From: a virus
Length of the DNA: 64,000 nt
Virus record (IMG/VR): IMGVR_UViG_3300028299_000132
Coordinates: 1 to 64,000 of that record
Strand: one strand, 5' to 3'
Made by a program: the position numbers and the translations under genes. Shown here in pieces: positions 10,903 to 60,887 of the stretch. Numbering within the stretch: position 1 is the stretch's first letter; each line of letters starts with the position of its first letter. The notes beneath the pieces were generated by a model. It made no database searches. It was given only the letters and a program-made list of their open reading frames with translations, and had not been told where the DNA came from.

Positions 10903-11559
10903 TTAATTTTCATTTTTATCTTCAAATACTTTAAATGATTTGATATATTTCATATTCTCATCTAATGTATCATCCTGAGAACTAGTATACCATTCATCGT
11001 CAGGTTTATCAACTCTTTCTAGTAACACTCTGTAAAATAGAACATCATAAACTAGATTTTCAAATTTCATATGAGCGTGTGTATTTTGATTATATACCGC
11101 TTCTAAATCATGAAAAACATGTAATATTTTATTAAAATTCTTTTTATCTAAGAAATGCATTCTTATCTCAACATTAGTCATACCTCTTTTTTTATAATTA
11201 TCAACTATTTTATTCAATCTTTGTTCTAGTTCATAACCAAATGACCCGTGGCCAGTAGCGAAAACAACCGCTTCATTCACTTTATCCATATATGAATATC
11301 TCCTGTCTTTTATTGTATCGTTTATTAATTTTCTAACTAGTTTTTTAAAATCTTTACTATCTTTATCCTTGTTTCTATTTAAATAAATAATTTCTAATTC
11401 TGATAATTCATCTATTATTGTTGATATATTTCTTCCAGTTAGATATTTTTTAACATCATTTAATGAAACTTCTAACTTCTCATATCTATCTATTATTATA
11501 TTGATTTGTTTTTCTATTCTCTTTTCAATATTCTCCATATATTTTAATTTTTTATCCAT
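10903..11559 (-). CDS. Hypothetical protein with an internal MKYIKSFKVFE motif
   Basis: ORF; leader-like motif near the C-terminus. Confidence 0.65.
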   Translation of the reverse strand: MDKKLKYMENIEKRIEKQINIIIDRYEKLEVSLNDVKKYLTGRNISTIIDELSELEIIYLNRNKDKDSKDFKKLVRKLINDTIKDRRYSYMDKVNEAVVFATGHGSFGYELEQRLNKIVDNYKKRGMTNVEIRMHFLDKKNFNKILHVFHDLEAVYNQNTHAHMKFENLVYDVLFYRVLLERVDKPDDEWYTSSQDDTLDENMKYIKSFKVFEDKNEN

Positions 11560-12088
11560 AATACCAATCTAATGGTTTTGTTCTTATATCATCCAAATCA
11601 ATAATCAAACCCTCTTTATCTTTCATCTTCTTTATTGATTCCTTTTCCCTATCCATTATTCTATTTAGCACATCTGTGGCGTTATTAGAATAAAGTTCAT
11701 ATATTTCATTAACCAAGTCTATTATTTCTTGTTCTGTCATTTCGGTCGCTTTTATTAGAAATCTCCTGTATTTTAATATCGTATTCCACCTTTCTGGTAT
11801 GGAATTAACAATAGCTTTTTTTGTTATATCCTTTAGAGTCACTCTTCTATCAAGAACCACTAAGTTTATCCATTTATAAACTGTTGATTTGTCAAATGTA
11901 ACTTGATATAAATCAGATTTATAATCAGATTTCTCTTTACTTTTTATAATAACTTTTTCAACAAGTAATTTTTGAAATTGGTTTTCACCATATCCCATAG
12001 AAATCATATAATAAACATCATCATCATCTAAATAAAATTCATCATCTTCCCAATCAAAATCAGCTTCAAATAATTTTAAATATTTCAT
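11552..12088 (-). CDS. Hypothetical protein with leader MKYLKLFEADFDWED
   Basis: Shared leader plus acidic-aromatic motif. Confidence 0.7.
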   Translation of the reverse strand: MKYLKLFEADFDWEDDEFYLDDDDVYYMISMGYGENQFQKLLVEKVIIKSKEKSDYKSDLYQVTFDKSTVYKWINLVVLDRRVTLKDITKKAIVNSIPERWNTILKYRRFLIKATEMTEQEIIDLVNEIYELYSNNATDVLNRIMDREKESIKKMKDKEGLIIDLDDIRTKPLDWYYG

Positions 12089-12123: not shown

Positions 12124-12492
12124 TTAATATAAATCTTTATCTACCTCAAATTGTGGATATTTTTCAATTAGTTTAGAATATGAACGAATTTTCCACCCCA
12201 GGCATCCATCCCGGCCTGATACATAAATTAAAACATGATTATTAGCTGTAACTAATTTGTTAATTTCATCTCTTGTTAATTTTATAAAAGCTCCTGGTGA
12301 TTCCTCTACTCCATTACATCTATAATTATCAAATAATATTTTTGGAGAACTATTTGTCATAATATAAACATAATTACAATTATCATCATCATAATATTTA
12401 ACAAATACAAAATCTTGTGAATTTTCTTCATCCATCCATTCAAAATCATCAAAGTCAATGTCTATTTCTTCAAATAATTTTATGTATTTCAT
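12124..12492 (-). CDS. Hypothetical protein with leader MKYIKLFEEIDIDFDDFEW
   Basis: Shared leader plus acidic-aromatic motif. Confidence 0.7.
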   Translation of the reverse strand: MKYIKLFEEIDIDFDDFEWMDEENSQDFVFVKYYDDDNCNYVYIMTNSSPKILFDNYRCNGVEESPGAFIKLTRDEINKLVTANNHVLIYVSGRDGCLGWKIRSYSKLIEKYPQFEVDKDLY

Positions 12493-18253: not shown

Positions 18254-19744
18254 TCATTTAGTTGATTCTGGTCTTCTCGCAGCGGAACGATGAGAATATC
18301 TACCTGGTATCGTCACTGAAGTTTGTGTAGGTTGTTCAATTACATTTTTTTTTTCTAATTTTTCATTTATAACTCTCAGTTTGTAATCAAATTCAGCTTT
18401 CATATCTCGTATTATATCTTCTACATTGTCCTTATTATCAATATTTTGAAGTCTTTCACCCATATTTTCTATATATTCTTTGAAATCGTCTTTAAGATTT
18501 TCTGTATAGTCATTTATCAAATTTTTTATTTTGTCATCAGTATAATCTTTCTTCAAATTACCAATTTGATATTTTATATTATCTAATTCTGTCTTAATAT
18601 CATCATAATCTGATGTATTTGATATCAATTCAGTTATTTCTTTTTCTTCAAAAATAGATGTGTCAACAGAATTGTCAAGAGTTTTTTTTTCACTCTCAGT
18701 TGTATCTTCCTGACTTACAATATCTTCCGTTTCTTCTTGTTTTTCACTGATAATCTCTGATTCTAATTCATCAGTAACCACTTCGGGTTCTAGATTCTCG
18801 ATTTTTTCTTTTTTCTTGAAAACTTTTTTGAAACTATTAAGAATGTCAATTTTCTTTTTCTTCTTAGGGTCCTCAACAACAATTATCCGATTATCGTCTA
18901 ATTCACCAATTTTAACCATTGAAAGTCTATTAGCGACGATTATAAGTAATATCGCGAATGGGTCAAACACGAATATGATTAAAGATATCAAAAATCCAAC
19001 AACATCATCCATAGGTTTTCCTGATAAATCAGCGAGATATTTTAATGGCCCAATTTCTACCGAGATATCAGAACTTTCTAATTCTAATATTTCCCTATCA
19101 TATTTACTTATTGAATCGTTTAAAGAGTTTATTTTTGCGTATAATTGTGTATTTTGTTCTCTTAAATCATTTATCTGAGTATCAACTTCTTTTATATTAT
19201 TTTGTGTTTCTCTCGCTCTGTTTCTAAATACAGAACTTTGATTATTAGTTAATGTAGTATCAGTACTCTTGTTATAAAGATTTGATACAACATTTTCTTG
19301 TGTAGTTCTATTTCCTATATAAGTATTTATTTGATTATTTTTACTATCAATTTCTTTTTGATATCTATCAATTTCTAATTGAAATGTAGATTTTCGTTGG
19401 TCTGCGATTTTGGTTTCTTTTTGTATAGTTGTATATTTATTTGAAGTCGCATCGTACGCGTTTTTTAAAAACCCATATATACCAAGTGATGTTAAAGACA
19501 TTATACCAACAATCATACAGATGGATATAAATTTTATAATATTAGAGAAAATTTTCCAAAATCTGTATATAACACTAACATATACTAATTTTCCAAATTC
19601 TAAAGCCCCAAACAATATTAATGCTGATATTCCCGCACCAGCGAACAGTTTAGAGAGACCAAAAACACTAAAATACGCTGCGGTTCCAGCGATAACAATA
19701 GCTGTGAATGATAACAAAAGTACAAACAACCATGTTTTTTTCAT
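18254..19744 (-). CDS. Membrane protein with long coiled coils
   Basis: Three N-terminal hydrophobic segments, a coiled coil, an internal TM segment (IIFVFDPFAILL) and an acidic tail. Confidence 0.7.
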   Translation of the reverse strand: MKKTWLFVLLLSFTAIVIAGTAAYFSVFGLSKLFAGAGISALILFGALEFGKLVYVSVIYRFWKIFSNIIKFISICMIVGIMSLTSLGIYGFLKNAYDATSNKYTTIQKETKIADQRKSTFQLEIDRYQKEIDSKNNQINTYIGNRTTQENVVSNLYNKSTDTTLTNNQSSVFRNRARETQNNIKEVDTQINDLREQNTQLYAKINSLNDSISKYDREILELESSDISVEIGPLKYLADLSGKPMDDVVGFLISLIIFVFDPFAILLIIVANRLSMVKIGELDDNRIIVVEDPKKKKKIDILNSFKKVFKKKEKIENLEPEVVTDELESEIISEKQEETEDIVSQEDTTESEKKTLDNSVDTSIFEEKEITELISNTSDYDDIKTELDNIKYQIGNLKKDYTDDKIKNLINDYTENLKDDFKEYIENMGERLQNIDNKDNVEDIIRDMKAEFDYKLRVINEKLEKKNVIEQPTQTSVTIPGRYSHRSAARRPESTK

Positions 19745-20034: not shown

Positions 20035-20679
20035 ATGAAAAATGAAATCACATTTAAAAAACTACTATACCCAATCTTAATAACACTATATTTTTTATCA
20101 ATGGTATGTTATATTGCGTACCTAGATACTGAAAAAACAAATTTGAAAAACGACAACAAAATCTTAGCTGATTCATTGATGATAGCTAGAGATTCAGCGA
20201 ATACTCTTATTATGACATCTGATTCTTTAATCGAGGAGTTAAAAAGAACAAAAGATTTCTATAATTTCCTTTATGATATCGCTGATAGAGAAAGTGGGAT
20301 AAATCAATATTCTACGAATAAATATGGGATGATGGGATTATTTCAATTTAGTCCAAAGACACTCAGGTTCCTAGGGTTGGAAGTTAATAGGAGAACTTAT
20401 CTATCAGATGTGGATTTACAGGTAAATTCAATGATTTCTTATATGAAATTCAATAAAGTAAGATTATCTAGATATATAAAAAAATATGATGGTAAAAAAT
20501 ACAGAGGAGTTCATATAACAGAGAGTGGGTTACTCGCTGGAGCACATTTAGTGGGTGCAGGTGGTGTTATTGAATTTTTTGATAGACAGGGTAAGTATAA
20601 TATGTGTGACGCAAACAATGTACATGTATCAACATATATAAGGGATTTTTCAGGACACAATATGGCACTCCTGAATTAA
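20035..20679 (+). CDS. Membrane-anchored lytic transglycosylase/lysozyme-like protein
   Basis: N-terminal TM, RESG...N.YG.MGLFQF and ITESGLLAGAHLVG. Confidence 0.75.
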   Translation: MKNEITFKKLLYPILITLYFLSMVCYIAYLDTEKTNLKNDNKILADSLMIARDSANTLIMTSDSLIEELKRTKDFYNFLYDIADRESGINQYSTNKYGMMGLFQFSPKTLRFLGLEVNRRTYLSDVDLQVNSMISYMKFNKVRLSRYIKKYDGKKYRGVHITESGLLAGAHLVGAGGVIEFFDRQGKYNMCDANNVHVSTYIRDFSGHNMALLN

Positions 20680-21098: not shown

Positions 21099-21694
21099 TA
21101 TGATTTATTTCTAATAGCCTTTATTACGGTTTCTTTACTTATTTTATTATGTTTTAAAAAATCTTTAAGACTATTGTGAGTAAGAACTTGCATTAAAGTA
21201 AAATTATCACCCAACATACAAGTATAATATCCTGTTACTTTTTCTTCATCTGTTAAATTTTCCCATTCATCCAAATGTTCAATAGAATTATCACTTACCG
21301 CTGTTGGACACATACCAATGGGTTCTTCTTGTAAATTTTCCCAAGGTCTATCCATCTTGGTGTTTAAATTAGAAAATTCTACATATCCATCTGAAACAGG
21401 TTTGTCTATTTCATTATGTTTTGAATCCATAAATTTTACATTAAAACTAACTAAACTCTTCATATTTTCGGATTTCGTTAGGTTATATAATTTATCTATA
21501 TCAAATTTAATATTTTTTATTCTAAATATCAAATTATTTTCATCATTTTTAAAATTTCTTAAAAACATCATAAGATCCTGAATAAAGGGTCCGAATTCAC
21601 TAGATCCTTTCCTAAATTCACCAAATTCAGAAAATTTTATGATTCTATCATCGGTTGGTACTAATAAATCTTCAAATTTTTTATAATTCTTCAT
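21098..21694 (-). CDS. Hypothetical protein with leader MKNYKKFED
   Basis: The internal ATG at 21694 gives the shared leader. Confidence 0.6.
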   Translation of the reverse strand: MKNYKKFEDLLVPTDDRIIKFSEFGEFRKGSSEFGPFIQDLMMFLRNFKNDENNLIFRIKNIKFDIDKLYNLTKSENMKSLVSFNVKFMDSKHNEIDKPVSDGYVEFSNLNTKMDRPWENLQEEPIGMCPTAVSDNSIEHLDEWENLTDEEKVTGYYTCMLGDNFTLMQVLTHNSLKDFLKHNKISKETVIKAIRNKS

Positions 21695-22001
21695 CTTCTT
21701 CCTCATCAAAGACATTTTTTATTTCATAATCTTTCATTTCTGAACTAACCTTCTCTCTTATCTCTTCAACTGGTTTATGTAACATTTTCTTATCAATTGG
21801 TATTTCAATTTCATCATCAAAATCATCATCAACACTATTTTCTAGTTCTTCAATACTTTCATTATTAAAGTTAATTTCATCTTCCCATACATCCGATGGT
21901 GTATTTTTAATATTTTTCAGTGTATCATCTTCTTCTATATCAATTTGATTATCCAATTTACTTTCTTTAATAAATTTACTGAAATTTTTTAAATATTCCA
22001 T
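21681..22001 (-). CDS. Acidic hypothetical protein with leader MEYLKNFSKFIKE
   Basis: Shared leader; very D/E-rich, ends FDEEEDEEL. Confidence 0.65.
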   Translation of the reverse strand: MEYLKNFSKFIKESKLDNQIDIEEDDTLKNIKNTPSDVWEDEINFNNESIEELENSVDDDFDDEIEIPIDKKMLHKPVEEIREKVSSEMKDYEIKNVFDEEEDEEL

Positions 22002-22018
22002 TTTAATATTTTATTTTT

Positions 22019-22381
22019 TTAAATTAAAGTAACCATATCAACCTCTGGGTATTCCTCTAATTTATGTAGTTCTCCATTATTTTTTATATAAATAATACCA
22101 GTAAAAGCCCATTTATGAAGTATTTCAAATCCATCATCTTTTAATTTTTCAATAAAAATATTGATATCACCATCTGGATAGTAAAATCTAGTCTTTAATG
22201 AAACACGATAATCTTTCACTGGGGTGGCTGCCATAGGAGCGGCATCAATACTACTAATATTATCTGATTTTCCAAAGACATTAATTCCTAGATTTTTTTT
22301 TATATTATCTAGTATAGGCCAATTACTTTTATTTATTTCATTTATTTCTGAAAATTCTTCAAAATATTTTATAGTATTCAT
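22019..22381 (-). CDS. Hypothetical protein with leader MNTIKYFEEF
   Basis: Shared leader. Confidence 0.65.
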   Translation of the reverse strand: MNTIKYFEEFSEINEINKSNWPILDNIKKNLGINVFGKSDNISSIDAAPMAATPVKDYRVSLKTRFYYPDGDINIFIEKLKDDGFEILHKWAFTGIIYIKNNGELHKLEEYPEVDMVTLI

Positions 22382-22501
22382 AATATTTTATTTTTTTACA
22401 ACAATTATGTTGTGTATCTTTATATATTAAAAAAAAATGTTAAAAAATATATTTCATAATATCATTTAACTTTATTATATTTAAGAAAAAATTTACAACA
22501 T

Positions 22502-23905
22502 ATGAGTAAAATAGTTGACACTTTATTTGATGGTATATTAGTATATGATGACTCTAATCATATACAGAAAGAGGAAGTTGTTGAAGAAACTAAATCAAAG
22601 ACAGATTACAAGAAATACACATCAAAATTTTTCTTTCCAAAAAAGAAAGAAGAAGAAATAAATGAGGATGATGATACTCCGAGATATAAATGTGATACAA
22701 TGTCAACTATGAGTGTATCTGGTTTTATTGATTTATTGGAAGATAATGGATATAAAAGTGGTGTAAAGAAATGGAATGTTTTTATACCAAATGGATATAA
22801 TGATATTGATGAAAAATTAAAAAAAGTAAAAATATCCAATGATGAACAATTTATATTCGCTATTCCAGGGTGTGATAATCTAGTTAGTAAATATAATGTT
22901 TGGAAGAGTTTAGTGGATAAATACGGCCGTGAAACCGCGTCAACCATCGTTCCAGAATCATTTTTACTAGATAATAAAGAAGATGTTGAATTATTAAAAA
23001 AATTTGATAATCAGAAGTTTATCCTAAAGAAAAAGAAACAACGAAAACTTGGATTAAAATTAGTTGATAAAATTGAAGATATTTCAAAACTAAAAAAAGA
23101 AGAATACACAATAGCACAAAAATACTTAAAACCATTTCTAGTTAATGACAGGAAAGTAAATCTTAGAATATACTTACTTATTACATTGAAAAACAATGAA
23201 ATAACTATTTATGTTTCAAAATTTGGTTCCTGCATTTATACAAAACACGAATATGATCATAGTTCGTGTGATTTTGAAAAAAATATCACATCATATAATA
23301 TGGATTTATCAATCTATGAAGAGAATCCATTGACACTAGAACAATTAAAAACTTATCTGAAAAATAATGGGTTCGACCACATTGATATTTTTTCTAAAAT
23401 AGAGAATAAGATAAAATTGTTTATTTGTGCGATAAAAGATCAATTGGGTGATGAAAAATTTAATAAAAATATGTGTTTTCAGGTTTTTGGTATGGATTTT
23501 ATCCTAGATGAGAATTTAGACCCATTTCTATTAGAATGTAATAAAGGTCCAGAGATGAAACCAAAGGTAACACAAATAGAAGATCCAGATGATATTACAG
23601 AGGATATGATAAATCAAATTAATATTCTTAAAGAAACATTAAATAATGGTGATGATGGCATTGACAAAATCAAAAAGATTAAATCTTGTTACATAAAAAT
23701 TTATAAAGGATTTCCAAAAAATGTTTCAAGAACTGTTATAATGGAAAGAATTGAAAAATTCTATAAAGAAGAAAAAGAACTTGATTCATATCCAAATGGT
23801 TATATAACAGGAAATGGAATTAAAGTTCAAAAAGATACATTACATATAATGAATCTCATAGAGAATAATGAAAATAATGGATTTATAAAAGTTGATGTTA
23901 AATGA
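22502..23905 (+). CDS. Tubulin-tyrosine ligase / polyglutamylase family ATP-grasp enzyme
   Basis: PESFLL, FILKK...QRKLG, IAQKYL.PFLVNDRKVNLRIYLL and FQVFGMDFILDENLDPFLLECNKGP. Confidence 0.85.
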   Translation: MSKIVDTLFDGILVYDDSNHIQKEEVVEETKSKTDYKKYTSKFFFPKKKEEEINEDDDTPRYKCDTMSTMSVSGFIDLLEDNGYKSGVKKWNVFIPNGYNDIDEKLKKVKISNDEQFIFAIPGCDNLVSKYNVWKSLVDKYGRETASTIVPESFLLDNKEDVELLKKFDNQKFILKKKKQRKLGLKLVDKIEDISKLKKEEYTIAQKYLKPFLVNDRKVNLRIYLLITLKNNEITIYVSKFGSCIYTKHEYDHSSCDFEKNITSYNMDLSIYEENPLTLEQLKTYLKNNGFDHIDIFSKIENKIKLFICAIKDQLGDEKFNKNMCFQVFGMDFILDENLDPFLLECNKGPEMKPKVTQIEDPDDITEDMINQINILKETLNNGDDGIDKIKKIKSCYIKIYKGFPKNVSRTVIMERIEKFYKEEKELDSYPNGYITGNGIKVQKDTLHIMNLIENNENNGFIKVDVK

Positions 23906-23954
23906 ACTACTTTTAGCACGCCTAAAACAGTTGTTTTCTTTGATGGTAAAATGT

Positions 23955-23985
23955 AAAAAAAGGACTTCATTTGAAGTCCTTTTTT
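23955..23985. terminator. Bidirectional intrinsic terminator
   Basis: A-tract, GGACTTCA-TT-TGAAGTCC stem-loop and T-tract between convergent genes. Confidence 0.85.
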
Positions 23986-24691
23986 ATGGTAATCCAGCTA
24001 TATTTCCTTGTTTATTTTTTATCTTATAATCATAAAATAATATAAGATATTCCTCTAATGATGTATTCAATCCATCGGTTCCGATTATTTTACCATTAGT
24101 TCTTAGATATGTTTTAACAGTATTAAAACCAACCAAATGTGATGCTGCAACAATCCCAGTTCTTGTTATAGGAATATTGTTAATTTTTTTATTTTTGTAT
24201 TTTTTTATATAATCTTTCATATAAACATTTTCAATCAACCATAGGTATCTTTCAACAACTACCAATTGATCAGCGGGTGGAAATATAAAAGGATTTTTCT
24301 TAAAGTCTTGTGTTTTAATGTGTGAATATCCGACATCCGTTCTCGCTCTATGACCAATCTGCCATAATCCAATATGACCACTAGTTGTATCTCTCCAATT
24401 TCCATCGGATTCTCTTACCGCTAAATCATAAAGAAAATGTTCATAATTTTTATTTTTAGCGTTTGGTAGTATTCTTTTTAATAATTTTTTATTATCTTCT
24501 GGTATATTTTTACCTAATTTTATTGATTTTAGTTTTCTAATGTAAATACTATCAACTATTCTATATTCTTTTTTAATAATTTCAATTGGTTTATAAATAG
24601 TTATTATTGATAATTCTTTACCAGTTGATGATGTTATATCATATGGCATAAGTAAAAATAAAAGAGAAAGTATTGATATAATAATTTTCAT
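23984..24691 (-). CDS. Second lytic transglycosylase/lysozyme-like protein
   Basis: Signal peptide/TM, RESDG...GLWQIG and ITRTGIVAASHLVG; paralog of 20035..20679. Confidence 0.72.
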   Translation of the reverse strand: MKIIISILSLLFLLMPYDITSSTGKELSIITIYKPIEIIKKEYRIVDSIYIRKLKSIKLGKNIPEDNKKLLKRILPNAKNKNYEHFLYDLAVRESDGNWRDTTSGHIGLWQIGHRARTDVGYSHIKTQDFKKNPFIFPPADQLVVVERYLWLIENVYMKDYIKKYKNKKINNIPITRTGIVAASHLVGFNTVKTYLRTNGKIIGTDGLNTSLEEYLILFYDYKIKNKQGNIAGLP

Positions 24692-24770
24692 TTATAAATT
24701 TTTTTAATGAATTCAAATATAAATAAAAAAATTAAATAAAAAAATTATTTTATATTTATGATTTTATTTT

Positions 24771-24780
24771 TTAATATATA
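24771..24780 (+). promoter_or_regulatory. Putative phage (late) promoter TTAATATATA, representative copy
   Basis: The motif recurs about 20 times just upstream of starts, in the orientation of the downstream gene. Confidence 0.65.
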
Positions 24781-24797
24781 CAAAAAAACTATAAAGG

Positions 24798-26081
24798 ATG
24801 AAATTAAAACAATATAAAGATTTCATTTATGAAGCGGAGGAATTTGATATCTTAGACGAATTAGATGATGAATTTGATAGCATAACATTATCAGATAGAT
24901 TGAAAAATAGATTATTAACATTAAAAAAAGGTCAGTCATCTAAGATATCAGTTGGTGATGTGATTGTAAAAAATGATAAAGGTGATGGAAAACTCCCAAA
25001 ACATGCCATTGATTTTTTAAATAAAAAGAAGAGATTCAAAGTACTAAGAATGAACGATAAGGGTAAATTAGATTTAGGATGTAGTGAAGTATATAGAAGA
25101 GAATCTGATAATAAGAAAATAAGAAAAGTTTTTTATTTTTCTCCAAATAGATTTATGAAAACAGATAACTTAGATCCAGTATCACAATTTATTCTATCAC
25201 TAGAAGATATAGAAAAGAAAAATCTTATTGACACACCACTAGATTTCTTAGATGTTGATATGAAGGGTAATTTCACCTTTTTGTCTAGAAGATTTGTTGA
25301 ACCAGGAACGGATTCGTTTAAATCAGCGAAAAGGCAGCCAGCGGGGTTGAATAAAATATTAAATAGAATAGTAACAAAAGAATATTATGACACTAATTTA
25401 AAATCAAGAGATATAGAATTGTTCCTTAATCAATGGAGAGCGTTATTTGATACATCCTTAAATGCAAGAGTTTTAGAAGGTAATGATATTTTAGATGTAT
25501 ATAATCGTGAATTAATGAGTGATGGATGGAAACATTCTTCATGTGCAGCTTTCAATAGTTTAAAATCCGCGGATGTTAATAAATTTAAAGTATTTACAGA
25601 AAATCCACAAGTAAAAGCTCTCGCGATATACTCTAAGGGTAAAATACAGGGTAGGAGATTAATGTTTGATGGAATACAGAGTGAGACACATGGTAAATAT
25701 AAAAAAGGAGACCATGTTAAAATATTAAACAATTTCTATGGTGAAGGTGGTTCTGGTTCCAAAGTTGATCAGGTTATGTTAGAATGGGCGAAAGATAATG
25801 GTGTTGGTCATGTTGGTGGTGGTTATGGTGGAGGTATGGGCAGAGGATCTGGTGGTGTGAAAGATATATTTAGAATAAAATTAGATAACACTAGATTTCC
25901 TTCTTTTCCACCCATAGATATTTTCTATGTTAATTTCAAAACAAATGAAGTATCTTATCCAAATCCAGGTGGTGCTGGATGGCAGCAGATGTATGGTGCT
26001 CGTTGTCCAAAAGATTTGTTAGTTAAATCAAAAGTTTCATCCATATTCAAAAAAGATAAAGAAGAACCAACTGAAGATTAA
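24798..26081 (+). CDS. Hypothetical protein with leader MKLKQYKDFIYE
   Basis: Shared leader and a Gly-rich linker. Confidence 0.7.
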   Translation: MKLKQYKDFIYEAEEFDILDELDDEFDSITLSDRLKNRLLTLKKGQSSKISVGDVIVKNDKGDGKLPKHAIDFLNKKKRFKVLRMNDKGKLDLGCSEVYRRESDNKKIRKVFYFSPNRFMKTDNLDPVSQFILSLEDIEKKNLIDTPLDFLDVDMKGNFTFLSRRFVEPGTDSFKSAKRQPAGLNKILNRIVTKEYYDTNLKSRDIELFLNQWRALFDTSLNARVLEGNDILDVYNRELMSDGWKHSSCAAFNSLKSADVNKFKVFTENPQVKALAIYSKGKIQGRRLMFDGIQSETHGKYKKGDHVKILNNFYGEGGSGSKVDQVMLEWAKDNGVGHVGGGYGGGMGRGSGGVKDIFRIKLDNTRFPSFPPIDIFYVNFKTNEVSYPNPGGAGWQQMYGARCPKDLLVKSKVSSIFKKDKEEPTED

Positions 26082-30543: not shown

Positions 30544-33500
30544 ATGCCAATTAGTGATAGAAATTTAGGAAAATACAAAGTTCCTGGGATCTATATTGAA
30601 GAAGTTGATGAGTCAGTGATACAATTACCGATTCAAGAAGTTCTAATAAACTTAGTTCCAGGATTTTCAAAAAAGGGACCATTTAATAAACCTGTTAAGG
30701 TTAACACAAAACAGGATTTTGAAAAAATATTTGGAACCATTGATAAAGGCCTTGAAACAAAAGGATCATTCTTCCATAGAACAGTAAATACTATGTTGGA
30801 ACAAGGTCCAGTATGGGCACTTAATTTATTAAGTACAGATCCAACAAGGGATAAATTAAAATGGAAATCAATTTCCGCGTCATCCCAATATGATAATGGT
30901 TCACTTGTTTCTTCACCATACGAAAATTTCTTTAATAGACAGGATTTCTGGGAAAGAGATCCAGATTCTTTTAATGACATCGTTGTCGCGAACAATAGTG
31001 GTAGTGAAGATACGGAAAGATTGTTACATATAACAAATATGTCAGATAGAACTATAACAACATTTTTATTTAAATCTAGTGCAAAAGGATTTGATGTTAC
31101 CGCTGAACAATGGTATGGTGGTAGAGATAAAGTTCCATTATTTATGTTTCCAAAAGATTGGATTTCTGATTATATGATTAGTGTTTTAGTTGTCTATGGT
31201 GACTGGACAAATTATGATGATTTGAGTTCCGATTCAATATGGAGTACATATTTTAATTCAACTGGTTTAATAAAATCAAAAGTTGAGACTTTCGCTAATC
31301 ATAATCTAGTTACAACATTAGCGTTTTATGATGTATCATTGATTCCAGGATTTAAAGATCTGAATAACAGAAATATGTATATTAAAGATGTTATAAACAA
31401 CGACACTGACAAGACAGGTTTATTCTGTACTTATAATGAAGATGAATTATTAAATTCAGATTATTATAAAGGTAAACTAGATTTACTTGGTCAAACTTTA
31501 GTTGGGAATGAAACAAAAAAGGTTATAGATTTCCTATCTTACAATGAATCTATAAGTGAATATTTAACATTTACTGAGAAAAATTTGAATTCTGTTGGTA
31601 ATACATTCGCGAATTATGGTACAGTGCCAATTGATTTTGACACAGCGTGGCTTTCTGGTAGAACTGGTAGTTGGACGAATTGGTATACTGGTGGTATAAC
31701 AGCGACAACATCATCGTCATTAACAACAAATATGGTAACTTGTGATGGAACTAATATTACTTTAGCAGCTACTACGAATTTGAGTGTCAACGATGTTATT
31801 TATTTTGATAAAAATTTTTCAATTATTGAAAGAACAAAAGCGTATTATGTAAAAACCATTGGTGGTAGTGTTATAACAGTATCAACAGAAAGAGGCGGAC
31901 CAGCGGTAACAAATATTGTTACTGGTTCAACAACTGATGTTAATTTATATAAAATAGCTTATGGTTTTGATAATAACGGTGGAACTGGTTATTACAATAT
32001 AGGATCTACTAGATATTATTTAACTGGTGTAACAGATGCGTTCTTAAATCCATTTACTATTTCAACCTCATCATCTACTTATAGTAGAATTGATGTATTA
32101 TATCTAAATAGTGATAATACATCAGTAAAAACACTACAAGGGACTCAGGTTATTGGAACCGCTCCATCGTTACCAAATTATATTTTAAATAATACCAATT
32201 CTATAATTTTAGGATCATTGAAAACTACATATACTGATGGTGTTTGGAGTTTCACATATAGTGGTGTAACAGTTGATAATAATGGGTATATTCCACTAGG
32301 AACAAGTTATATTACAACAAATAGTGGTACAACAACCGCCGGAGTTAACTATTTAGATTTGATATTTACCGGTACATATGGTTCATCTAGTGATTGGACA
32401 AATTACACAAAATTAAGAAATCTCAAAATATATAACGAATTATCCACAAAATTGGCTTCTGGAAAGGGTGTTATGATTAAAACAAATGGTTATAAATTTG
32501 AAATCTCATCACCGTCCTCATATGACGCTACGGTATCAGACAACGCTAGATTAAGAATCTATTTTGATGATACCGAATCACCATATGATTATTTTGATAC
32601 ATCAACAAATAGTTTCATATTGTATTACATAAATGATGAATTTATGGTAGGTGATGGTAGTGTATCTACATTTACAACATCAATGAAACCACAGGTAGAA
32701 TCAACAGAGGGTATCATCTCTACATATTCATCATTATATACATCTTATTATGATGGGTTAATTAATAATGGTGATTATTTCTTTATCAATAACGATAGTG
32801 GCAGTACTGGAACCGATAATAGAATATATATGAAGATGTATTTCGCTCCATTATTAACAGTAAATTTTTATGATGACGCGGAAATGACATCATCATATTC
32901 AATTTCTGGATTTGATACAAATTATGGTAGTGAACTAATAGTTTATTCTGATAAATCTAATTGGAAACAGACAATTGAAATTGAAAAACCATCAACTATA
33001 ATAGATACAACAAATACTACAGTAATTTATGTTAATAAGACTAGATATTCAGAAATAACAAAGGGTAGTTTCTTGGAAGCGTATTATGATACTTCATATT
33101 ATGATTCTCCAGGTACTGGGTATCTAAATGGTGAAGTTCCTAAAAAGTTTACAAGAATTGTTAATGTTCTTAACGATACAGTTGATACAACATTGAAAAT
33201 TCTTTATACTGACGCTCCAATTAAGATAAACTATATAGTAACAACTGGTTCTACAAATGACTATTATACAACCGCTTATTCTTCAATTGATAATTATGTG
33301 ACAGATTATAAGGGAGTCGCGATAACACCATTTATTATTCATTCGGATTCTATTCCAAACGCCACAGAAGCTAGACAAACATCAATTCTAAATGTTATCG
33401 CTAGTGGAACTAGATTAGCGAAAGGATTAACTAACAAGAATAGAATCTCATGGAGATATCTAGTTGATTCATTTGGAATGGGGTTGATCGCGAATTCTAA

Positions 33501-34350
33501 ACAACAACTAGTGGATCTTTGTGGTAAAAAAATAAATTCATTAGGATTCTTGAATATGCCAAGTGCGAAATTGTTTAAGAAATCTTCTAATCCAAGTTTC
33601 GTAAATTCTGATAATTCTTTAAATATGGAGTATATCAAAGAAGGTGCAGACACGAGTAAAAATCCAGATTTCTATTACTCATTTGGTGAAGGAGTTGGAC
33701 AATCTTGTGTATCTTATTGGTTCCCATATATTAAAACAGATCAAGAATCTACAAAATTTATTCCACCATCTGGTGAAATAGCTAAAACATTTATGGGTAA
33801 ATTTACAACCATAAACGCTAGTATTAAACCTTGGACTATTCTTGGTGGTGTTATAAGAGGTAAACTATTAAATGTTAGAGAAACCGAAATCAGATTCACA
33901 TACGATGATTTAGAATCATTGAATGAAATGAACTCAAATCCAATTGATTATGTTGAAAACTATGGATATATAATCAATAGTGATAATACCGCTCAAGTTT
34001 ATCCATATTCTTCTTTAAGTCTAATTCACTCAAGAGAAGTCCTAATTGAACTTGAAAATAGATTATATGATATGTTACTTAACTATCACTGGAGATTTAA
34101 CACCCCAGAAATTCGCTCTGAAATCAAATACAGAGCAGATCAGATTTGTAAAGAATTGAGAGAATCTGACGCGTTGTATGCTTACAGAAATGTATGTGAT
34201 AAGACAAACAATACAGATTATATAATTGGCTTACAAATGGGGATACTTGACACGTACTGCGAAGTAATCAAGGGTATGGGTATTATTGTAAATCAAATTA
34301 CCATTCTCAAGAAAGGTACTATAGAATCTTCGGGGTTCTTAACACCATAA
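30544..34350 (+). CDS. Contractile tail sheath protein (T4 gp18-like) with a large insertion
   Basis: PGIYIEEVD and GFSKKGPFNKP at the N-terminus; PPSG...PW...GG.RG, FN.PE.R and VCDKTNNT at the C-terminus. Confidence 0.9.
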   Translation: MPISDRNLGKYKVPGIYIEEVDESVIQLPIQEVLINLVPGFSKKGPFNKPVKVNTKQDFEKIFGTIDKGLETKGSFFHRTVNTMLEQGPVWALNLLSTDPTRDKLKWKSISASSQYDNGSLVSSPYENFFNRQDFWERDPDSFNDIVVANNSGSEDTERLLHITNMSDRTITTFLFKSSAKGFDVTAEQWYGGRDKVPLFMFPKDWISDYMISVLVVYGDWTNYDDLSSDSIWSTYFNSTGLIKSKVETFANHNLVTTLAFYDVSLIPGFKDLNNRNMYIKDVINNDTDKTGLFCTYNEDELLNSDYYKGKLDLLGQTLVGNETKKVIDFLSYNESISEYLTFTEKNLNSVGNTFANYGTVPIDFDTAWLSGRTGSWTNWYTGGITATTSSSLTTNMVTCDGTNITLAATTNLSVNDVIYFDKNFSIIERTKAYYVKTIGGSVITVSTERGGPAVTNIVTGSTTDVNLYKIAYGFDNNGGTGYYNIGSTRYYLTGVTDAFLNPFTISTSSSTYSRIDVLYLNSDNTSVKTLQGTQVIGTAPSLPNYILNNTNSIILGSLKTTYTDGVWSFTYSGVTVDNNGYIPLGTSYITTNSGTTTAGVNYLDLIFTGTYGSSSDWTNYTKLRNLKIYNELSTKLASGKGVMIKTNGYKFEISSPSSYDATVSDNARLRIYFDDTESPYDYFDTSTNSFILYYINDEFMVGDGSVSTFTTSMKPQVESTEGIISTYSSLYTSYYDGLINNGDYFFINNDSGSTGTDNRIYMKMYFAPLLTVNFYDDAEMTSSYSISGFDTNYGSELIVYSDKSNWKQTIEIEKPSTIIDTTNTTVIYVNKTRYSEITKGSFLEAYYDTSYYDSPGTGYLNGEVPKKFTRIVNVLNDTVDTTLKILYTDAPIKINYIVTTGSTNDYYTTAYSSIDNYVTDYKGVAITPFIIHSDSIPNATEARQTSILNVIASGTRLAKGLTNKNRISWRYLVDSFGMGLIANSKQQLVDLCGKKINSLGFLNMPSAKLFKKSSNPSFVNSDNSLNMEYIKEGADTSKNPDFYYSFGEGVGQSCVSYWFPYIKTDQESTKFIPPSGEIAKTFMGKFTTINASIKPWTILGGVIRGKLLNVRETEIRFTYDDLESLNEMNSNPIDYVENYGYIINSDNTAQVYPYSSLSLIHSREVLIELENRLYDMLLNYHWRFNTPEIRSEIKYRADQICKELRESDALYAYRNVCDKTNNTDYIIGLQMGILDTYCEVIKGMGIIVNQITILKKGTIESSGFLTP

Positions 34351-39876: not shown

Positions 39877-40842
39877 TTATTTTACAATTTTTAAAAATAG
39901 ATCAAATTTTATTTCCTTTCTACCATCTTTAGTATAACTTCCCGAACTTGGTGAATAGTATCCACCAATAGTATAATTATAATTAATATCCCAATTCCCC
40001 CATTTTATTGATTGTAATACCCTCTTATTTTTTTCTGTTACTTTAATACACCAATTTTGTGGTACTTTTGGTTTTGGTTCTTCTTCTTCATATTCCCAAT
40101 CATTTTCATCAAAATCTATACTTTCCTTTATATTACCAATTACTGTAATTCTATCATCTCCTATTAATGATATATTATCCCCACTATTGACAACTTTACA
40201 GAATTCTATTCTAGGATAATCGTAGTTATTGTATTCTGGTACTAATGATGGCACCTTAAATTCTTTGACAGAAATCTTTCTCCATGATTTATATATCTTC
40301 TCCTCTTTTTTATATTCATATACATGTATTTTTTTACCACTTATATTATCATTTAACCAGTTTATAAATTTGTGAATATCTTTACCTACGTGTTCATATA
40401 ATTCATATAATATAAATTCCTCTTTATCAAATGGTTCCTCATCTTCATAATCCCAATCATCAAAGTCAATTGATTCAGTTATTACTTTTTGAAAATAATC
40501 ATCCATTTTTTCATCATCTTCAACAAAAAATTTCCATCCAGAGTGAGGTAGTTCTATTTTTCCCCTAAAAAAATACACTGTAACCTTCTGATGTGGATGA
40601 TTCTTCCTAGTTCTATTAGAAGTATAGGCATCAGTATAGACACCAGTTTTATCTTTTCTTATTCTTTCAATCTTTAATTCTTCACCAACATCAAATTCTG
40701 ACGCGAATCTAAATACGGGGTGTTCATAAGACTTTATACATCTGACTATATCACCAGCTTTAAACTTATCTCCAATTGTTTCTGGTTCATTTTCCCAATC
40801 AAAATCAAAATCTATTTCTTCGTATAATTTAATATATTTCAT
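39877..40842 (-). CDS. Multi-module protein with three IDFD..W acidic linkers
   Basis: MKYIKLYEEIDFDFDWE, ITESIDFDDWDYE and IKESIDFDENDWE. Confidence 0.7.
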   Translation of the reverse strand: MKYIKLYEEIDFDFDWENEPETIGDKFKAGDIVRCIKSYEHPVFRFASEFDVGEELKIERIRKDKTGVYTDAYTSNRTRKNHPHQKVTVYFFRGKIELPHSGWKFFVEDDEKMDDYFQKVITESIDFDDWDYEDEEPFDKEEFILYELYEHVGKDIHKFINWLNDNISGKKIHVYEYKKEEKIYKSWRKISVKEFKVPSLVPEYNNYDYPRIEFCKVVNSGDNISLIGDDRITVIGNIKESIDFDENDWEYEEEEPKPKVPQNWCIKVTEKNKRVLQSIKWGNWDINYNYTIGGYYSPSSGSYTKDGRKEIKFDLFLKIVK

Positions 40843-59831: not shown

Positions 59832-60887
59832 TCAAAGTTTTATATTTTTTAGTTGTGGATCATATTCATAACTAAAATTATTATCTGCTTCATATTTTCT
59901 AATCATTCTAATCAATTTTTCTATTTTTGGATAGTTTTTGTATATTATTAAAACTTTATTAAGGTCTTTAGTCTTATTGGGATCAAATCTACCTCCTGTG
60001 GTTATTTCAGAACTATCCATAGTACTTTTTCTATGGAAGTCTATTATGTAATAGAAATCTGGATCTTTTAATATTTTTCTTATAACTTTTCTTCCATCAT
60101 ATGTAGATTCCTCATCTACTATTAAATATCCACAATGTTTTATAAACGATTTAAATACTTTATATCCAAATCCAATATTTTTTATCATACTTGAAAGATG
60201 TATAAATCCTTGCATATGTGCAGTAAATCTAATATGACCAAAATGTGACTTTTCATCTCTTTTACTCAAAAAGAAAAACCATTTATTTTTCTCATTTTCA
60301 ACTCCAACAGACGAGATTAATCCCAATCTTTCTATTTTATTCTCTAGATTTTTATTTTTCAATTTGAGAAAATATCTTTTATCTCCTGGATACCGCGTCC
60401 CTTTTCTTTCTATAAAATAAATATCCTCATCTGATATATTTTTCAGTTTATTAATAACATTATTTATTTCAAATCTTTTTATAAAATTAGGTTTATGGGT
60501 TGATCTTTTAAATATAGCACGATCTTTTATGTTACTTAAGAAAAAATTTGGATTGTCTTTGTACCACTCTTCTGTTATATTTTCTTTAATATATTGTATT
60601 TTTTCTCTTTCATCTAATAGATAGAATCTATTATCAACTTTTAATTCAAATTCTCCAATTTTATTCTTTTTAACATCTTGTAATATACCCTCAACATATT
60701 TTGACCACCAATCTACTTTAAACCTAACTTGTTTACCTATTAGTTGTTTAAGATTCAGATAGTTTTCTTCATGTTTTAATGACGAATTTGTAAAAGGATT
60801 ATCATATTCTAATGTTGTGTATGGTTCATATTCTTCCCAGTCCATATCATCAAAATCAATATCTTCAAATAATTTTATATATCTCAT
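59832..60887 (-). CDS. Hypothetical protein with leader MRYIKLFEDIDFDDMDWEE
   Basis: Shared leader plus acidic-aromatic motif. Confidence 0.7.
   Translation of the reverse strand: MRYIKLFEDIDFDDMDWEEYEPYTTLEYDNPFTNSSLKHEENYLNLKQLIGKQVRFKVDWWSKYVEGILQDVKKNKIGEFELKVDNRFYLLDEREKIQYIKENITEEWYKDNPNFFLSNIKDRAIFKRSTHKPNFIKRFEINNVINKLKNISDEDIYFIERKGTRYPGDKRYFLKLKNKNLENKIERLGLISSVGVENEKNKWFFFLSKRDEKSHFGHIRFTAHMQGFIHLSSMIKNIGFGYKVFKSFIKHCGYLIVDEESTYDGRKVIRKILKDPDFYYIIDFHRKSTMDSSEITTGGRFDPNKTKDLNKVLIIYKNYPKIEKLIRMIRKYEADNNFSYEYDPQLKNIKL

What the first reader, a model, noticed from the sequence alone, without database searches (positions are those of the whole stretch)
22502..23905. Tubulin-tyrosine-ligase/polyglutamylase-family enzyme in a tailed phage
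Seen: a full set of TTL-type ATP-grasp motifs (QKY, RKVNLRIY, FGMDF, LLECNKGP). Established: TTL/TTLL enzymes ligate Tyr, Glu or Gly to acidic protein segments and are mainly eukaryotic or giant-virus enzymes. Inference: this is a phage protein-modification system. Candidate substrates are a PhuZ-like tubulin, host FtsZ, or the Glu-rich phage proteins nearby (21681..22001 ends FDEEEDEEL, and several leaders carry DWEEE-type motifs).
Basis: partly seen in the sequence, partly recalled or inferred. Interest (0 to 1): 0.78.

Follow-up and report, generated by a model that had tools for sequence, protein, structure and literature searches.

The report
Tubulin-ligase-type enzyme in huge phage
A lake-water bacteriophage with a probably 700-800 kb genome encodes an intact enzyme of the tubulin-tyrosine-ligase family although no tubulin gene was found in its contig or in its complete relative; its likeliest targets are the glutamate-rich peptide tags that abound in the phages that carry the enzyme.

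Summary
ORF 22502-23905 (+, 467 aa) is a real member of the TTL family: Pfam PF03133 scores 89 bits against a cut-off of 20; the AlphaFold model has pLDDT 90 and aligns to TTLL6 at Z 31.8 and to TTL at Z 30; the ATP, Mg and acceptor-binding residues are invariant in 108 homologues.

The virus is a contractile-tailed huge phage. The window encodes a 1268-aa tail sheath, and about 50 genes of the 98-kb contig have homologues in the 735-kb Mahaphage LR756501.

The phage TTLs form one well-supported clade beside a large giant-virus (NCLDV) TTL radiation. Which group gave the gene to the other is unresolved.

No tubulin or PhuZ was found in the contig or in the complete relative.

Two substrate leads emerged:
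- A small acidic-tail protein is divergently transcribed next to the TTL gene in 4 of 4 contigs of the window's sublineage.
- Acidic tryptophan tags (DPYGEExW, or DFDDxDWEWEEE here) are abundant in most TTL-bearing phage records examined and at background level in two TTL-less relatives examined in bulk; the exact DPYGEExW pattern is absent from all five comparison genomes. This amounts to one evolutionary event, so it is suggestive only.

Activity, the amino acid added and the target are all untested. This scan reached a similar reading on another genome (e1-5754352). I found no paper reporting a phage TTL.

The parts
22502..23905 (+). TTL-family ATP-grasp ligase gene (467 aa)
   Evidence: ORF. 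Pfam PF03133 89 bits. Model pLDDT 89.8; Z 31.8 to TTLL6 and Z 30 to TTL.
22502..22669 (+). Residues 1-56: variable, probably disordered N-terminal extension
   Evidence: pLDDT 47-59. Poorly conserved in alignments A1 and A2. It lacks the N-terminal hydrophobic helix that most giant-virus homologues carry.
22670..23566 (+). Residues 57-355: TTL core (N, central and C domains) holding the catalytic set K176, Q206, K218, R222, D332, E345, N347
   Evidence: These residues are invariant in 108 homologues. This part aligns to TTLL6 and TTL at rmsd 2.7-2.9 A over 315-320 residues.
23570..23728 (+). Residues 357-409: helical insert found only in the window's sublineage
   Evidence: Alignment A1. Helices 367-381 and 387-400 in the model.
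23729..23821 (+). Residues 410-440: segment shared by both phage sublineages and absent from the giant-virus forms (helix, then YPxGYxxGxG)
   Evidence: Alignments A1 and A2.
23822..23902 (+). Residues 441-467: C-terminal element KVQKD...NNGF shared with the giant-virus homologues
   Evidence: Alignment A1. It closes the TTL C domain in the structural alignment.
22382..22501 (.). 120-bp AT-rich upstream spacer holding TATCTTTATATA (22415-22426); possible promoter, unproven
   Evidence: Sequence. The motif occurs once in the window, but 27 of 100 shuffles also give at least one match, so it is not significant.
23956..23985 (.). 13-bp-stem hairpin flanked by an A run and a T run: a terminator that could serve both the TTL gene and the convergent gene 23984-24691
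   Evidence: It is the only terminator-like site in 21500-24900.
21681..22001 (-). 106-aa very acidic protein (pI 4.1) with an MEYLKNF leader, a conserved PSxxW motif and the tail NVFDEEEDEEL; candidate substrate
   Evidence: It is divergently transcribed next to the TTL gene here and in L087, L088 and L089. No homologue in LR756501.
22019..22381 (-). 120-aa leader-bearing ORF lying between the acidic protein gene and the TTL gene, in this phage only
   Evidence: no counterpart in L087-L089, where the two genes are about 80-100 bp apart.
30544..34350 (+). Tail sheath protein (1268 aa): shows that the virus is a contractile-tailed phage
   Evidence: 54.5% identical over its full length to LR756501, and 27-31% identical to annotated tail sheaths of Flavobacterium, Tenacibaculum and Sphingomonas phages and to Lak phages.
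11552..12088 (-). Example of a leader plus acidic Trp tag (MKYLKLFEADFDWEDDE...); candidate TTL target class
12124..12492 (-). Leader plus acidic Trp tag (…EEIDIDFDDFEWMDEE)
39877..40842 (-). Leader plus acidic Trp tag (…EEIDFDFDWENEP)
59832..60887 (-). Leader plus acidic Trp tag (…EDIDFDDMDWEEYEP)

Best explanation
The gene encodes a catalytically intact ATP-grasp amino-acid ligase of the TTL/TTLL family. It is carried by a Mahaphage-type huge myovirus from lake water; the predicted host phylum of its relatives is Bacteroidetes. Like its eukaryotic relatives, it would activate a protein carboxylate with ATP (a Glu side chain or a C-terminus in an acidic stretch) and add an amino acid, most plausibly Glu. 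The target is not tubulin. The likeliest targets are the phage's own Glu-rich, Trp-containing peptide tags: DFDDxDWEWEEE after MKYLKLFE-type leaders in this phage, and DPYGEExW in the LR756501 lineage. The acidic-tail protein encoded next door may be a target as well. Shown: family membership, fold, an intact active site, the phage context, the absence of detectable tubulin, and the co-occurrence with the tags. Inferred: enzymatic activity, the amino acid added and the target. My odds: active protein ligase about 0.85; target is the phage's own acidic tags about 0.3-0.35. The confidence given here is for the whole statement, target included.
For: Family and fold: Pfam TTL 89 bits; PDB sequence hits are TTL and TTLLs only; model pLDDT 89.8; VIA-align Z 31.8 to TTLL6, rmsd 2.7 A over 320 residues, and Z 30 to TTL spanning the whole enzyme.
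Active site: K130, K176, Q206, K218, R222, Y224, D332, E345 and N347 are invariant in 108 homologues.
Phage context: tail sheath; 58 of 174 ORFs of at least 70 aa (shadow frames included) hit LR756501, i.e. about 50 genes; that genome belongs to the Mahaphage clade, whose largest members are predicted to infect Bacteroidetes (PMC7162821).
No tubulin.
Tags: LR756501 carries 102 DPYGEExW tags. The TTL-bearing contigs G001, G002 and G004 carry 24, 24 and 7. All five comparison genomes have none: LR756502, LR756504, LR745206 and Lak-A1, which lack TTL, and LR756500, which has only a sub-threshold ATP-grasp hit.
Trp in an acidic context: 4.9% of Trp residues in this contig and 2.0% in LR756501, against 0.4% in LR756502 and 0.6% in Lak-A1 (Fisher p 2e-11 to 2e-4).
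LR756502 keeps the MKHLKxY leaders but has no acidic tag after them.
An acidic-tail neighbour sits beside the TTL gene in 4 of 4 contigs of this sublineage.
Exact-match fragments of the ORF occur in contigs of two lake metatranscriptome libraries. This is only a weak hint of transcription, because DNA carry-over is not excluded.
Against: No biochemical evidence exists. The TTL-bearing phages form one lineage: the TTL clade has SH-aLRT 100, and the sheath of LR756501 is closer to the window's than those of the TTL-less genomes. The co-occurrence of tag and TTL is therefore a single evolutionary event, and any other lineage-specific gene would fit it equally well. One TTL-bearing contig (G003, record of L006) has no exact DPYGEExW match. 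Giant-virus loci with the sister TTLs show no such tags. The tags are not linked to the TTL gene by position. The acidic neighbour has no homologue in LR756501, and its adjacency may simply reflect general synteny among close relatives. The canonical Asp of the K-x-D-x-R motif is Asn (N220) in this viral clade; what this does to activity is unknown.
Confidence: 0.4

Rival explanations
1. The ligase modifies a host (bacterial) protein to take over or disable a host function. Possible targets are FtsZ, ribosomal protein S6 (as RimK does), RNA polymerase or a defence protein.
For: Phage enzymes that modify host proteins are common; established knowledge includes the T4 ADP-ribosyltransferases, and the same role has been proposed for phage R2K ATP-grasp ligases (PMC4431377; PMC7824862). 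In the LR756501 lineage the TTL gene lies beside an R2K ATP-grasp gene and a GroEL-like chaperonin gene. No partner is conserved across the whole phage clade.
Against: No host is known, so no host target can be examined. It does not explain why acidic tags and TTL occur in the same phages.
Confidence: 0.25
2. The dedicated substrate is the 106-aa acidic protein encoded divergently upstream (21681-22001). The ligase would extend or cap its tubulin-tail-like C-terminus (…DEEEDEEL), and the two genes would form a two-gene module.
For: Divergent adjacency holds in the window and in L087, L088 and L089. The tail stays acidic although its sequence drifts (alignment A4). Among about 150 non-nested ORFs of the contig, only 2 have at least 6 Asp or Glu in their last 12 residues.
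Against: These four contigs are syntenic over the whole block 18-24 kb, so adjacency may be inherited and not selected. In the window a 120-aa ORF separates the two genes. LR756501, which also has TTL, has no homologue of this protein.
Confidence: 0.12
3. It ligates an amino acid to a non-protein carboxylate, such as a cell-wall or glycan component or a metabolite, as many other ATP-grasp enzymes do.
For: The gene lies between two SLT-type lytic transglycosylase paralogues (20035-20679, Pfam SLT 29 bits; 23984-24691, homologous to it). The window also holds sugar-nucleotide genes.
Against: Sequence and fold place it squarely among the protein-modifying TTL and TTLL enzymes. YheC/D falls below its cut-off and RimK gives no hit. 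The SLT neighbours are not next to the TTL gene in the LR756501 lineage.
Confidence: 0.1
4. It modifies a phage tubulin (PhuZ/TubZ-like) encoded in the missing 85-90% of this genome.
For: Only about 12% of the genome is in hand. Some huge phages encode PhuZ (PMC7162821).
Against: The complete 735-kb relative that carries a TTL has no Pfam Tubulin match and no tubulin signature motif in a plausible ORF. Caveat: Pfam sheath and terminase models also failed on these divergent genomes, so sensitivity is limited.
Confidence: 0.03
5. It is an inactive or purely structural remnant of a gene transferred between giant viruses and phages.
For: The canonical Asp of K-x-D-x-R is Asn.
Against: All the ATP, Mg and acceptor ligands are invariant across 108 sequences that are down to 25% identical, which indicates purifying selection on catalysis. 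The Asn is itself conserved in at least 90% of the clade.
Confidence: 0.03

Closest known systems
TTL-family proteins of giant viruses (Nucleocytoviricota), described in PMC11915834 and annotated in ChlorV (PMC13196603)
   Same: They are the nearest sequence relatives, 30-41% identical. They share the clade-specific RKxNLRIY and LLExNKGP motifs and the C-terminal KVQxD...NxF element. Function is untested in both groups.
   Different: The giant-virus forms are shorter (about 360-400 aa). Most carry an N-terminal hydrophobic helix and they lack residues about 357-440. Their hosts have tubulin, whereas this virus infects bacteria. Their loci show no acidic Trp tags.
TTLL6 and TTLL7 tubulin polyglutamylases (PDB 6VZT, 4YLR)
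   Same: Best structural and sequence match among solved structures: Z 31.8, rmsd 2.7 A over 320 residues, E 2e-10. The three-domain core and the catalytic residues are the same.
   Different: About 20% identity. Nothing shows a counterpart of the cationic microtubule-binding domain. There is a different helical insert after the core, and no tubulin substrate is available.
Tubulin tyrosine ligase, TTL (PDB 4I4T chain F, 3TIG)
   Same: Model residues 59-467 align to TTL residues 1-381, that is the whole enzyme, at Z about 30.
   Different: 19-20% identity, and Asn replaces the motif Asp. TTL recognises the tubulin dimer body (established knowledge), which has no equivalent here.
RimK (polyglutamylation of ribosomal protein S6) and R2K ATP-grasp ligases of phages
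   Same: These are prokaryotic or phage ATP-grasp enzymes that add, or are predicted to add, amino acids to proteins (PMC4431377). An R2K gene lies next to the TTL gene in L004 and L007.
   Different: They belong to other ATP-grasp families. The window protein gives no Pfam hit to RimK or R2K.
TTL homologue of the 735-kb phage LR756501 and earlier scan note e1-5754352
   Same: Same phage clade of TTLs: 40.7% identity over residues 57-464.
   Different: The gene neighbourhood differs: chaperonin and R2K there, acidic-tail protein here. The tag sequence differs too: DPYGEExW there, DFDDxDWEWEEE here.

Membership tests
TTL/TTLL family (Pfam PF03133) | Profile score above the curated cut-off | tested here: met
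   89 bits against 20.1, covering residues 117-356 and profile positions 10-265 of 292. The genome search gave 90.3 bits.
TTL/TTLL family (Pfam PF03133) | Three-domain TTL fold (N, central and C domains around the ATP-grasp site) | tested here: met
   Z 31.8 to TTLL6, 30.0 to TTL and 29.6 to TTLL11. rmsd 2.7-2.9 A over 315-321 residues, spanning model residues 57-467. The model is predicted, with pLDDT 89.8.
TTL/TTLL family (Pfam PF03133) | ATP-binding lysines, the hinge Q-x-Y, and the Mg ligands D...E-x-N | tested here: met
   K176, Q206, K218, D332, E345 and N347 are invariant in 108 sequences. They align with the corresponding TTLL6 motifs. E345 matches the Glu of LLE[VI]N that is mutated in 'ligase-dead' TTLLs (from my own knowledge).
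TTL/TTLL family (Pfam PF03133) | Arg of K-x-D-x-R, which in TTL/TTLLs contacts the acceptor carboxylate (from my own knowledge) | tested here: met
   R222 is invariant.
TTL/TTLL family (Pfam PF03133) | Asp of the K-x-D-x-R motif | tested here: inconclusive
   It is Asn (N220) here and in at least 90% of the phage plus giant-virus clade, whereas the eukaryote-like TTLLs P0102 and P0103, and also P0101, keep Asp. I do not know the functional weight of this residue.
TTL/TTLL family (Pfam PF03133) | Tubulin as the substrate | tested here: not met
   No Pfam Tubulin match and no tubulin signature in the contig or in the complete relative LR756501. Non-tubulin substrates are known for TTLLs (PMC13052805, listed), so this does not exclude membership.
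TTL/TTLL family (Pfam PF03133) | ATP-dependent amino-acid ligation to a protein | not testable with these tools
   Needs an enzyme assay.
YheC/D-like and RimK-type ATP-grasp ligases | Profile score above the curated cut-off | tested here: not met
   YheCD scores 19.1 bits against a cut-off of 26.8, on residues 298-354 only. ATPgrasp_ST scores 16.6 against 31.4. RimK gives no hit.
Caudoviricetes, Mahaphage-type huge phage (context claim) | Tail genes and shared gene content with a recognised huge phage | tested here: met
   The tail sheath is homologous to annotated sheaths of cultured phages. 58 ORFs have homologues in LR756501, some in collinear blocks. The relative L004 has a gp5-type baseplate hub domain and a gp44-type clamp loader. 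The Pfam sheath and terminase models themselves gave no hits.

The most novel reading that the evidence does not exclude
The phage TTL writes an aminoacyl mark (for example glutamylation) on a short, near-invariant acidic Trp tag carried by dozens to more than 100 phage proteins (DPYGEExW in the LR756501 lineage, DFDDxDWEWEEE here). This would be a virus-encoded, proteome-wide modification code in a bacterial virus, perhaps steering packaging, processing or assembly. The same ancestry would then cast doubt on the assumed tubulin role of the giant-virus TTLs.
Probability: 0.3. Interest if true: 0.9.

Novelty: new variant of a known kind. Interest (0 to 1): 0.68.

Why it matters
TTL/TTLL enzymes are regarded as a eukaryotic tool for marking tubulin and a few other acidic proteins. 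An intact member conserved in a clade of bacterial viruses, with no tubulin gene found in the contig or in the complete relative, means the family has a function outside the eukaryotic cytoskeleton. It also offers a compact, probably soluble enzyme for studying how TTL-type ligases choose their substrates. The co-occurrence with highly repeated acidic tags gives a concrete and cheap experiment. If it works, it would reveal a new kind of phage-encoded protein modification, and it would prompt a re-reading of the giant-virus TTLs, whose tubulin role is so far only assumed (PMC11915834). I found no paper reporting a TTL in a phage.

Tried and rejected
- Complex prediction, with the TTL core plus ATP and Mg against the last 47 residues of the acidic neighbour, returned 'no answer' (score 0.08 against a mark of 0.32). 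This is neither support nor evidence against binding.
Gene contexts therefore came from the search for related loci and the fetch from genomes.
- PHROGs and NCBIfam gave nothing for the protein.
- A single-sequence scan of viral contigs found nothing; the alignment-based scan worked.
- Pfam Phage_sheath_1 and Terminase_6C found nothing in the contig, in LR756501 or in three related contigs. The sheath was identified instead by tblastn to annotated phages. This shows that Pfam-level absences, including that of tubulin, are of limited weight in these genomes.
- There are no conserved neighbours between the window and the 80 viral loci.
- The candidate promoter word TATCTTTATATA is not significant, and sigma-70-type matches fall below the shuffle expectation.
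- The free tree drew the phage clade among giant-virus branches, but the AU test does not reject giant-virus monophyly (p 0.82, with a higher likelihood). I therefore dropped any claim about nesting or about which group was the donor.
- The genome-contig scan, with one strict motif, found only two short MAG contigs. That is too narrow a pattern to claim absence from cellular genomes.
- The weak PF03133 hit in LR756500 (18.6 bits) is a 329-aa ATP-grasp protein of another type by eye. I did not pursue it.
- I did not try to predict the amino-acid specificity (Glu, Tyr or Gly), because I had no reliable residue map.
Full report
**The gene.** ORF 22502..23905 (+) encodes 467 aa.
- Pfam assigns it to the tubulin-tyrosine-ligase family: PF03133, 89 bits, E 4e-25, residues 117-356, cut-off 20.1.
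- The only other Pfam matches are sub-threshold scraps of YheC/D (19 bits) and ATPgrasp_ST (17 bits) on the last beta-strands that all ATP-grasp enzymes share. RimK does not match.
- PHROGs and NCBIfam have nothing for it.
- phmmer against all PDB sequences returns only TTLL6 (E 2e-10), TTLL7, TTL, TTLL11 and TTLL3. The alignment pairs KPFLVNDRKVNLRIYLLIT with the TTLL6 K-F-D-L-R strand, and FGMDF...LLECNKGP with FEILGFD...LLEVNHSP.

**Structure.** An AlphaFold2 model built on 108 homologues has mean pLDDT 89.8 and pTM 0.85. Only residues 1-56 are of low confidence.
- Foldseek ranks TTLL6, TTLL11, TTLL7 and TTL first.
- VIA-align gives Z 31.8 to TTLL6 (rmsd 2.7 A, 320 residues) and Z about 30 to TTL. 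Model residues 59-467 cover TTL residues 1-381, that is the whole enzyme.
- About 90 residues are not matched. They correspond to a helical segment after the catalytic core. Residues 357-409 occur only in the window's sublineage, and residues 410-440 occur in all phage forms but not in giant-virus forms.

**Active site.** K130, K176, Q206, K218, R222, Y224, P276, D332, E345 and N347 are invariant across 108 sequences that are down to about 25% identical.
- These include the ATP lysines, the Arg of K-x-D-x-R and the Mg ligands D...E-x-N.
- One difference from canonical TTLs stands out: the Asp of K-x-D-x-R is Asn (N220) in at least 90% of this viral clade. The eukaryote-like TTLLs P0102 and P0103, and also P0101, keep Asp.
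- This pattern points to a working enzyme under selection. It does not tell which amino acid is added.

**What the virus is.** The window is the first 64 kb of a 98,091-bp IMG/VR contig that CheckV rates 12% complete, which implies a genome of roughly 700-800 kb. GC content is about 25%.
- The 1268-aa ORF at 30544-34350 is a tail sheath. It is 54.5% identical over its full length to a protein of LR756501, 47% to the 634-642 kb phages LR756502, LR756504 and LR745206, about 30% to the Lak phages, and 27-31% to annotated tail sheaths of cultured Flavobacterium, Tenacibaculum and Sphingomonas phages.
- 58 of 174 ORFs of at least 70 aa in the contig (shadow frames included, so about 50 genes) hit LR756501 at 25-62% identity, some in collinear blocks: 26-34 kb matches 588-600 kb, and 45-52 kb matches 614-622 kb.
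- LR756501 is the 735-kb genome of the Mahaphage clade, whose largest members are predicted to infect Bacteroidetes (PMC7162821).
- 'Tailed phage' is therefore correct.
- Other window genes fit a huge phage: an intein-split family B DNA polymerase, sugar-nucleotide enzymes, two hybrid histidine kinases, TnpB and an SLT lytic transglycosylase.
- The contig occurs in several lake-water metagenomes. Short exact-match fragments of the TTL ORF (22722-22872, 23291-23478, 23221-23468) occur in contigs of two metatranscriptome libraries. This is only a weak hint of expression, because DNA carry-over cannot be excluded.
- The gene looks monocistronic. A 120-bp spacer lies upstream and a two-way hairpin terminator lies at 23956-23985.

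**Relatives and origin.**
- The word-indexed search found 103 homologues, 100 of them at E below 1e-32. None has an informative name: the sources give only 'hypothetical protein' or 'Uncharacterized protein'.
- The exhaustive search found 2454 at E<1e-3 and 151 at E<1e-30.
- Among 50,697 phage records, only LR756501 and its duplicate LR756503 have a homologue (40.7% identity, residues 57-464).
- In IMG/VR, the five best loci (39-43% identity, full length) are non-GVMAG contigs. L004, L005, L007 and L008 are syntenic with LR756501 around the TTL gene; L006 shares only the TTL gene.
- 45 of the other 75 loci carry GVMAG names, that is giant-virus MAGs. These are 30-41% identical and shorter. Most start with a hydrophobic helix.
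- TTL homologues in Nucleocytoviricota are already described, with a presumed tubulin role (PMC11915834; PMC13196603).
- A maximum-likelihood tree was built from 69 sequences, rooted on two eukaryote-like TTLLs, with the quick search. All 22 phage-type sequences form one clade (SH-aLRT 100). It splits into the window's sublineage (13 sequences, support 100) and the LR756501 sublineage (9 sequences, support 91).
- The free tree drew this clade among giant-virus branches. However, the AU test does not reject a tree in which all giant-virus sequences form one clade (p 0.82, with a likelihood 18 units higher). The phage and giant-virus TTLs are each other's closest relatives and share the Asn variant, but who gave the gene to whom is open.
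- A strict-motif scan of 185,579 prokaryote species genomes found only two short MAG contigs.

**Is there tubulin?** Pfam Tubulin finds nothing in the contig. It also finds nothing in the complete LR756501 or in the records of four other TTL-bearing contigs, while it rings in 13 of 14 control genomes.
- The tubulin signature [SAGLV]GG[TS]G[STA]G occurs in no plausible ORF of either genome. The single match lies in a 2830-aa Gly-rich ORF.
- Caveat: Pfam models for the sheath and terminase also missed these divergent phages. A very divergent PhuZ is therefore not excluded, nor is one in the unseen part of this genome.

**Neighbourhood.** Across the 80 viral loci no neighbour is shared with the window.
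- In the LR756501 sublineage (L004, L005, L007, L008, L084), the TTL gene lies just downstream of a GroEL-like chaperonin gene (Pfam Cpn60_TCP1, 275 bits). In L004 and L007 it follows an R2K-clade ATP-grasp gene, and an SMC/SbcC-like ATPase gene lies further upstream. None of these genes is in the 98-kb contig.
- In the window's own sublineage, three independent metagenome contigs (L087, L088 and L089, with TTLs 55-61% identical) keep a small, divergently transcribed gene right upstream of the TTL gene. This is the homologue of window 21681-22001. The product has 106-120 aa and pI about 4. It has an M-x-x-L-K-N-F leader, a conserved PSxxW motif and an acidic tail: NVFDEEEDEEL, NVFEEEEEENED, DVFAEKEKENEE or NVFDEEEKENDD.
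- These contigs are, however, syntenic with the window over the whole 18-24 kb block, so the adjacency may simply be inherited. LR756501 has no homologue of the small protein.

**The acidic tags.** While looking for acidic candidates I found that LR756501 carries 102 copies of a near-invariant peptide, DPYGEE-x-W, in about 90 ORFs. It sits right after an MI[KT]x[FY] leader, at the very C-terminus, or between domains.
- This contig has the related form: 16 ORFs begin with MKY[IL]KLFE-type leaders, and many continue with IDFDDxDWEWEEE(P). First-stage notes e1-6016829, e1-6021522 and e1-6021523 describe these leaders and linkers.
- The close relative L088 has both styles. One DPYGEEDW tail is on the gene just downstream of its TTL gene.
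- Exact back-translated DPYGEExW matches:

| Genome or contig | TTL | Matches |
|---|---|---|
| G001 | yes | 24 |
| G002 | yes | 24 |
| G004 | yes | 7 |
| G003 (record of L006) | yes | 0 |
| LR756502, LR756504, LR745206, LR756500, Lak-A1 | see below | 0 each |

- Pfam TTL is absent from four of those last five genomes. LR756500 has only a sub-threshold hit in another kind of ATP-grasp protein.
- A motif-free measure is the share of Trp residues with at least 4 Asp or Glu within three positions on either side:

| Source | Share of Trp in acidic context |
|---|---|
| This contig (TTL+) | 4.9% |
| LR756501 (TTL+) | 2.0% |
| LR756502, first 400 kb (TTL-) | 0.4% |
| Lak-A1, first 400 kb (TTL-) | 0.6% |
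| Giant-virus loci | 0.2-0.5% |

- Fisher tests between TTL-bearing and TTL-less genomes give p from 2e-11 to 2e-4.
- LR756502 keeps 32 MKHLKxY-type leaders in 400 kb, but no acidic Trp tag follows them. The leader is thus general in these phages, while the acidic tag travels with TTL.
- Because TTL-type enzymes act on Glu in acidic stretches (established knowledge), the tags are a natural candidate substrate.
- Limits: the TTL-bearing phages are one lineage, so this is one evolutionary coincidence, and any other lineage-specific gene would fit it as well. No modification has been shown. An earlier follow-up in this scan reached the same suggestion on another genome (e1-5754352).

**Mechanism proposed.** By homology, the enzyme binds ATP and Mg through K176, K218, D332, E345 and N347. 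It would form an acyl-phosphate on a substrate carboxylate held by R222, and an amino group of a free amino acid would then attack. All steps are inferred from the family. Glu is the most likely amino acid added, given the closest structural match to glutamylases, but that is weak ground.
- My odds that it is an active protein ligase are about 0.85.
- Odds for the target: phage acidic tags 0.3-0.35, a host protein 0.25, the acidic neighbour 0.12, a non-protein carboxylate 0.1, phage tubulin 0.03, inactive 0.03.

**Literature.** Full-text searches for TTL with phage, bacteriophage, jumbo, huge or megaphage found no report of a phage TTL. The 224-genome jumbo-phage survey mentions R2K ATP-grasp ligases but never TTL (PMC7824862).

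**Verdict.** This is a new variant of a known enzyme family in an unexpected host setting, and it comes with a concrete, testable substrate hypothesis.

Noticed in passing
LR756501 (loci L095-L131), whole genome; also the records of L004, L005 and L007: A near-invariant 8-residue peptide, DPYGEE-x-W, occurs 102 times in about 90 ORFs of the 735-kb phage. It sits after N-terminal MI[KT]x[FY] leaders, at extreme C-termini, and between domains. It occurs 7-24 times in three related contigs and not at all in five other huge phages.
   Followed up: partly
LR756502, first 400 kb (loci L138-L157): 32 ORFs start with MKHLK[KT][YF]-type leaders like those of the window phage, but none is followed by an acidic Trp tag. 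The leader and the tag are therefore separable features.
   Followed up: partly
window 30544-34350 (+): An unusually long (1268 aa) tail sheath protein with no Pfam hit. It was identified only by tblastn to annotated sheaths of Bacteroidota jumbo phages and Lak phages. The neighbouring 707-aa ORF 26078-28201 is also conserved in LR756501 (45% identity).
   Followed up: partly
L004 7273-8892 and 8993-9874; L084 17164-18777: In the LR756501 lineage the TTL gene follows a GroEL-like chaperonin gene whose product ends in ...PPMY instead of the usual Gly-Met repeats. In L004 and L007 it also follows an R2K-clade ATP-grasp gene, so two different predicted protein ligases sit side by side.
   Followed up: no
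loci L009-L083 (giant-virus MAG contigs): Most giant-virus members of this TTL clade begin with a hydrophobic helix, either a membrane anchor or a signal. That sits oddly with the assumed cytosolic tubulin role.
   Followed up: no
window 12504-14090 (-), 34450-36270 (+), 44299-45129 (-): Three paralogues of a DUF7487 protein (Pfam 65-67 bits for the first two). The related contig L088 has three more copies within 21 kb. This looks like a multi-copy, possibly mobile gene family.
   Followed up: no
window 20035-20679 (+) and 23984-24691 (-): Two paralogous proteins lie 1.8 kb upstream and 80 bp downstream of the TTL gene. The first scores Pfam SLT 29 bits, the second has no Pfam hit. Both have hydrophobic N-termini.
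   Followed up: no
window 7233-9146 (+) and 37363-38595 (-): Two hybrid histidine kinase/response-regulator proteins (HisKA + HATPase_c + Response_reg) are encoded by the phage. Both have homologues in LR756501.
   Followed up: no
window 49736-50932 (+) and 53461-54663 (-): A DruA-like protein (Pfam 61.5 bits), which belongs to the Druantia defence family, and a TnpB/IS605 OrfB transposase-type gene.
   Followed up: no
window 18254-19744 (-): A 496-aa membrane protein with coiled coils and a weak DUF4407 match. It is 68-74% identical in L088 and L089 and 42% in LR756501, making it the best-conserved gene of the block that holds the TTL gene.
   Followed up: no
L137 1348-2337 (-) (LR756500): A 329-aa ATP-grasp protein with an MKFIKPYEEF leader and a weak TTL-profile match (18.6 bits). 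It is probably another kind of ligase in a 462-kb phage that lacks the tags.
   Followed up: no
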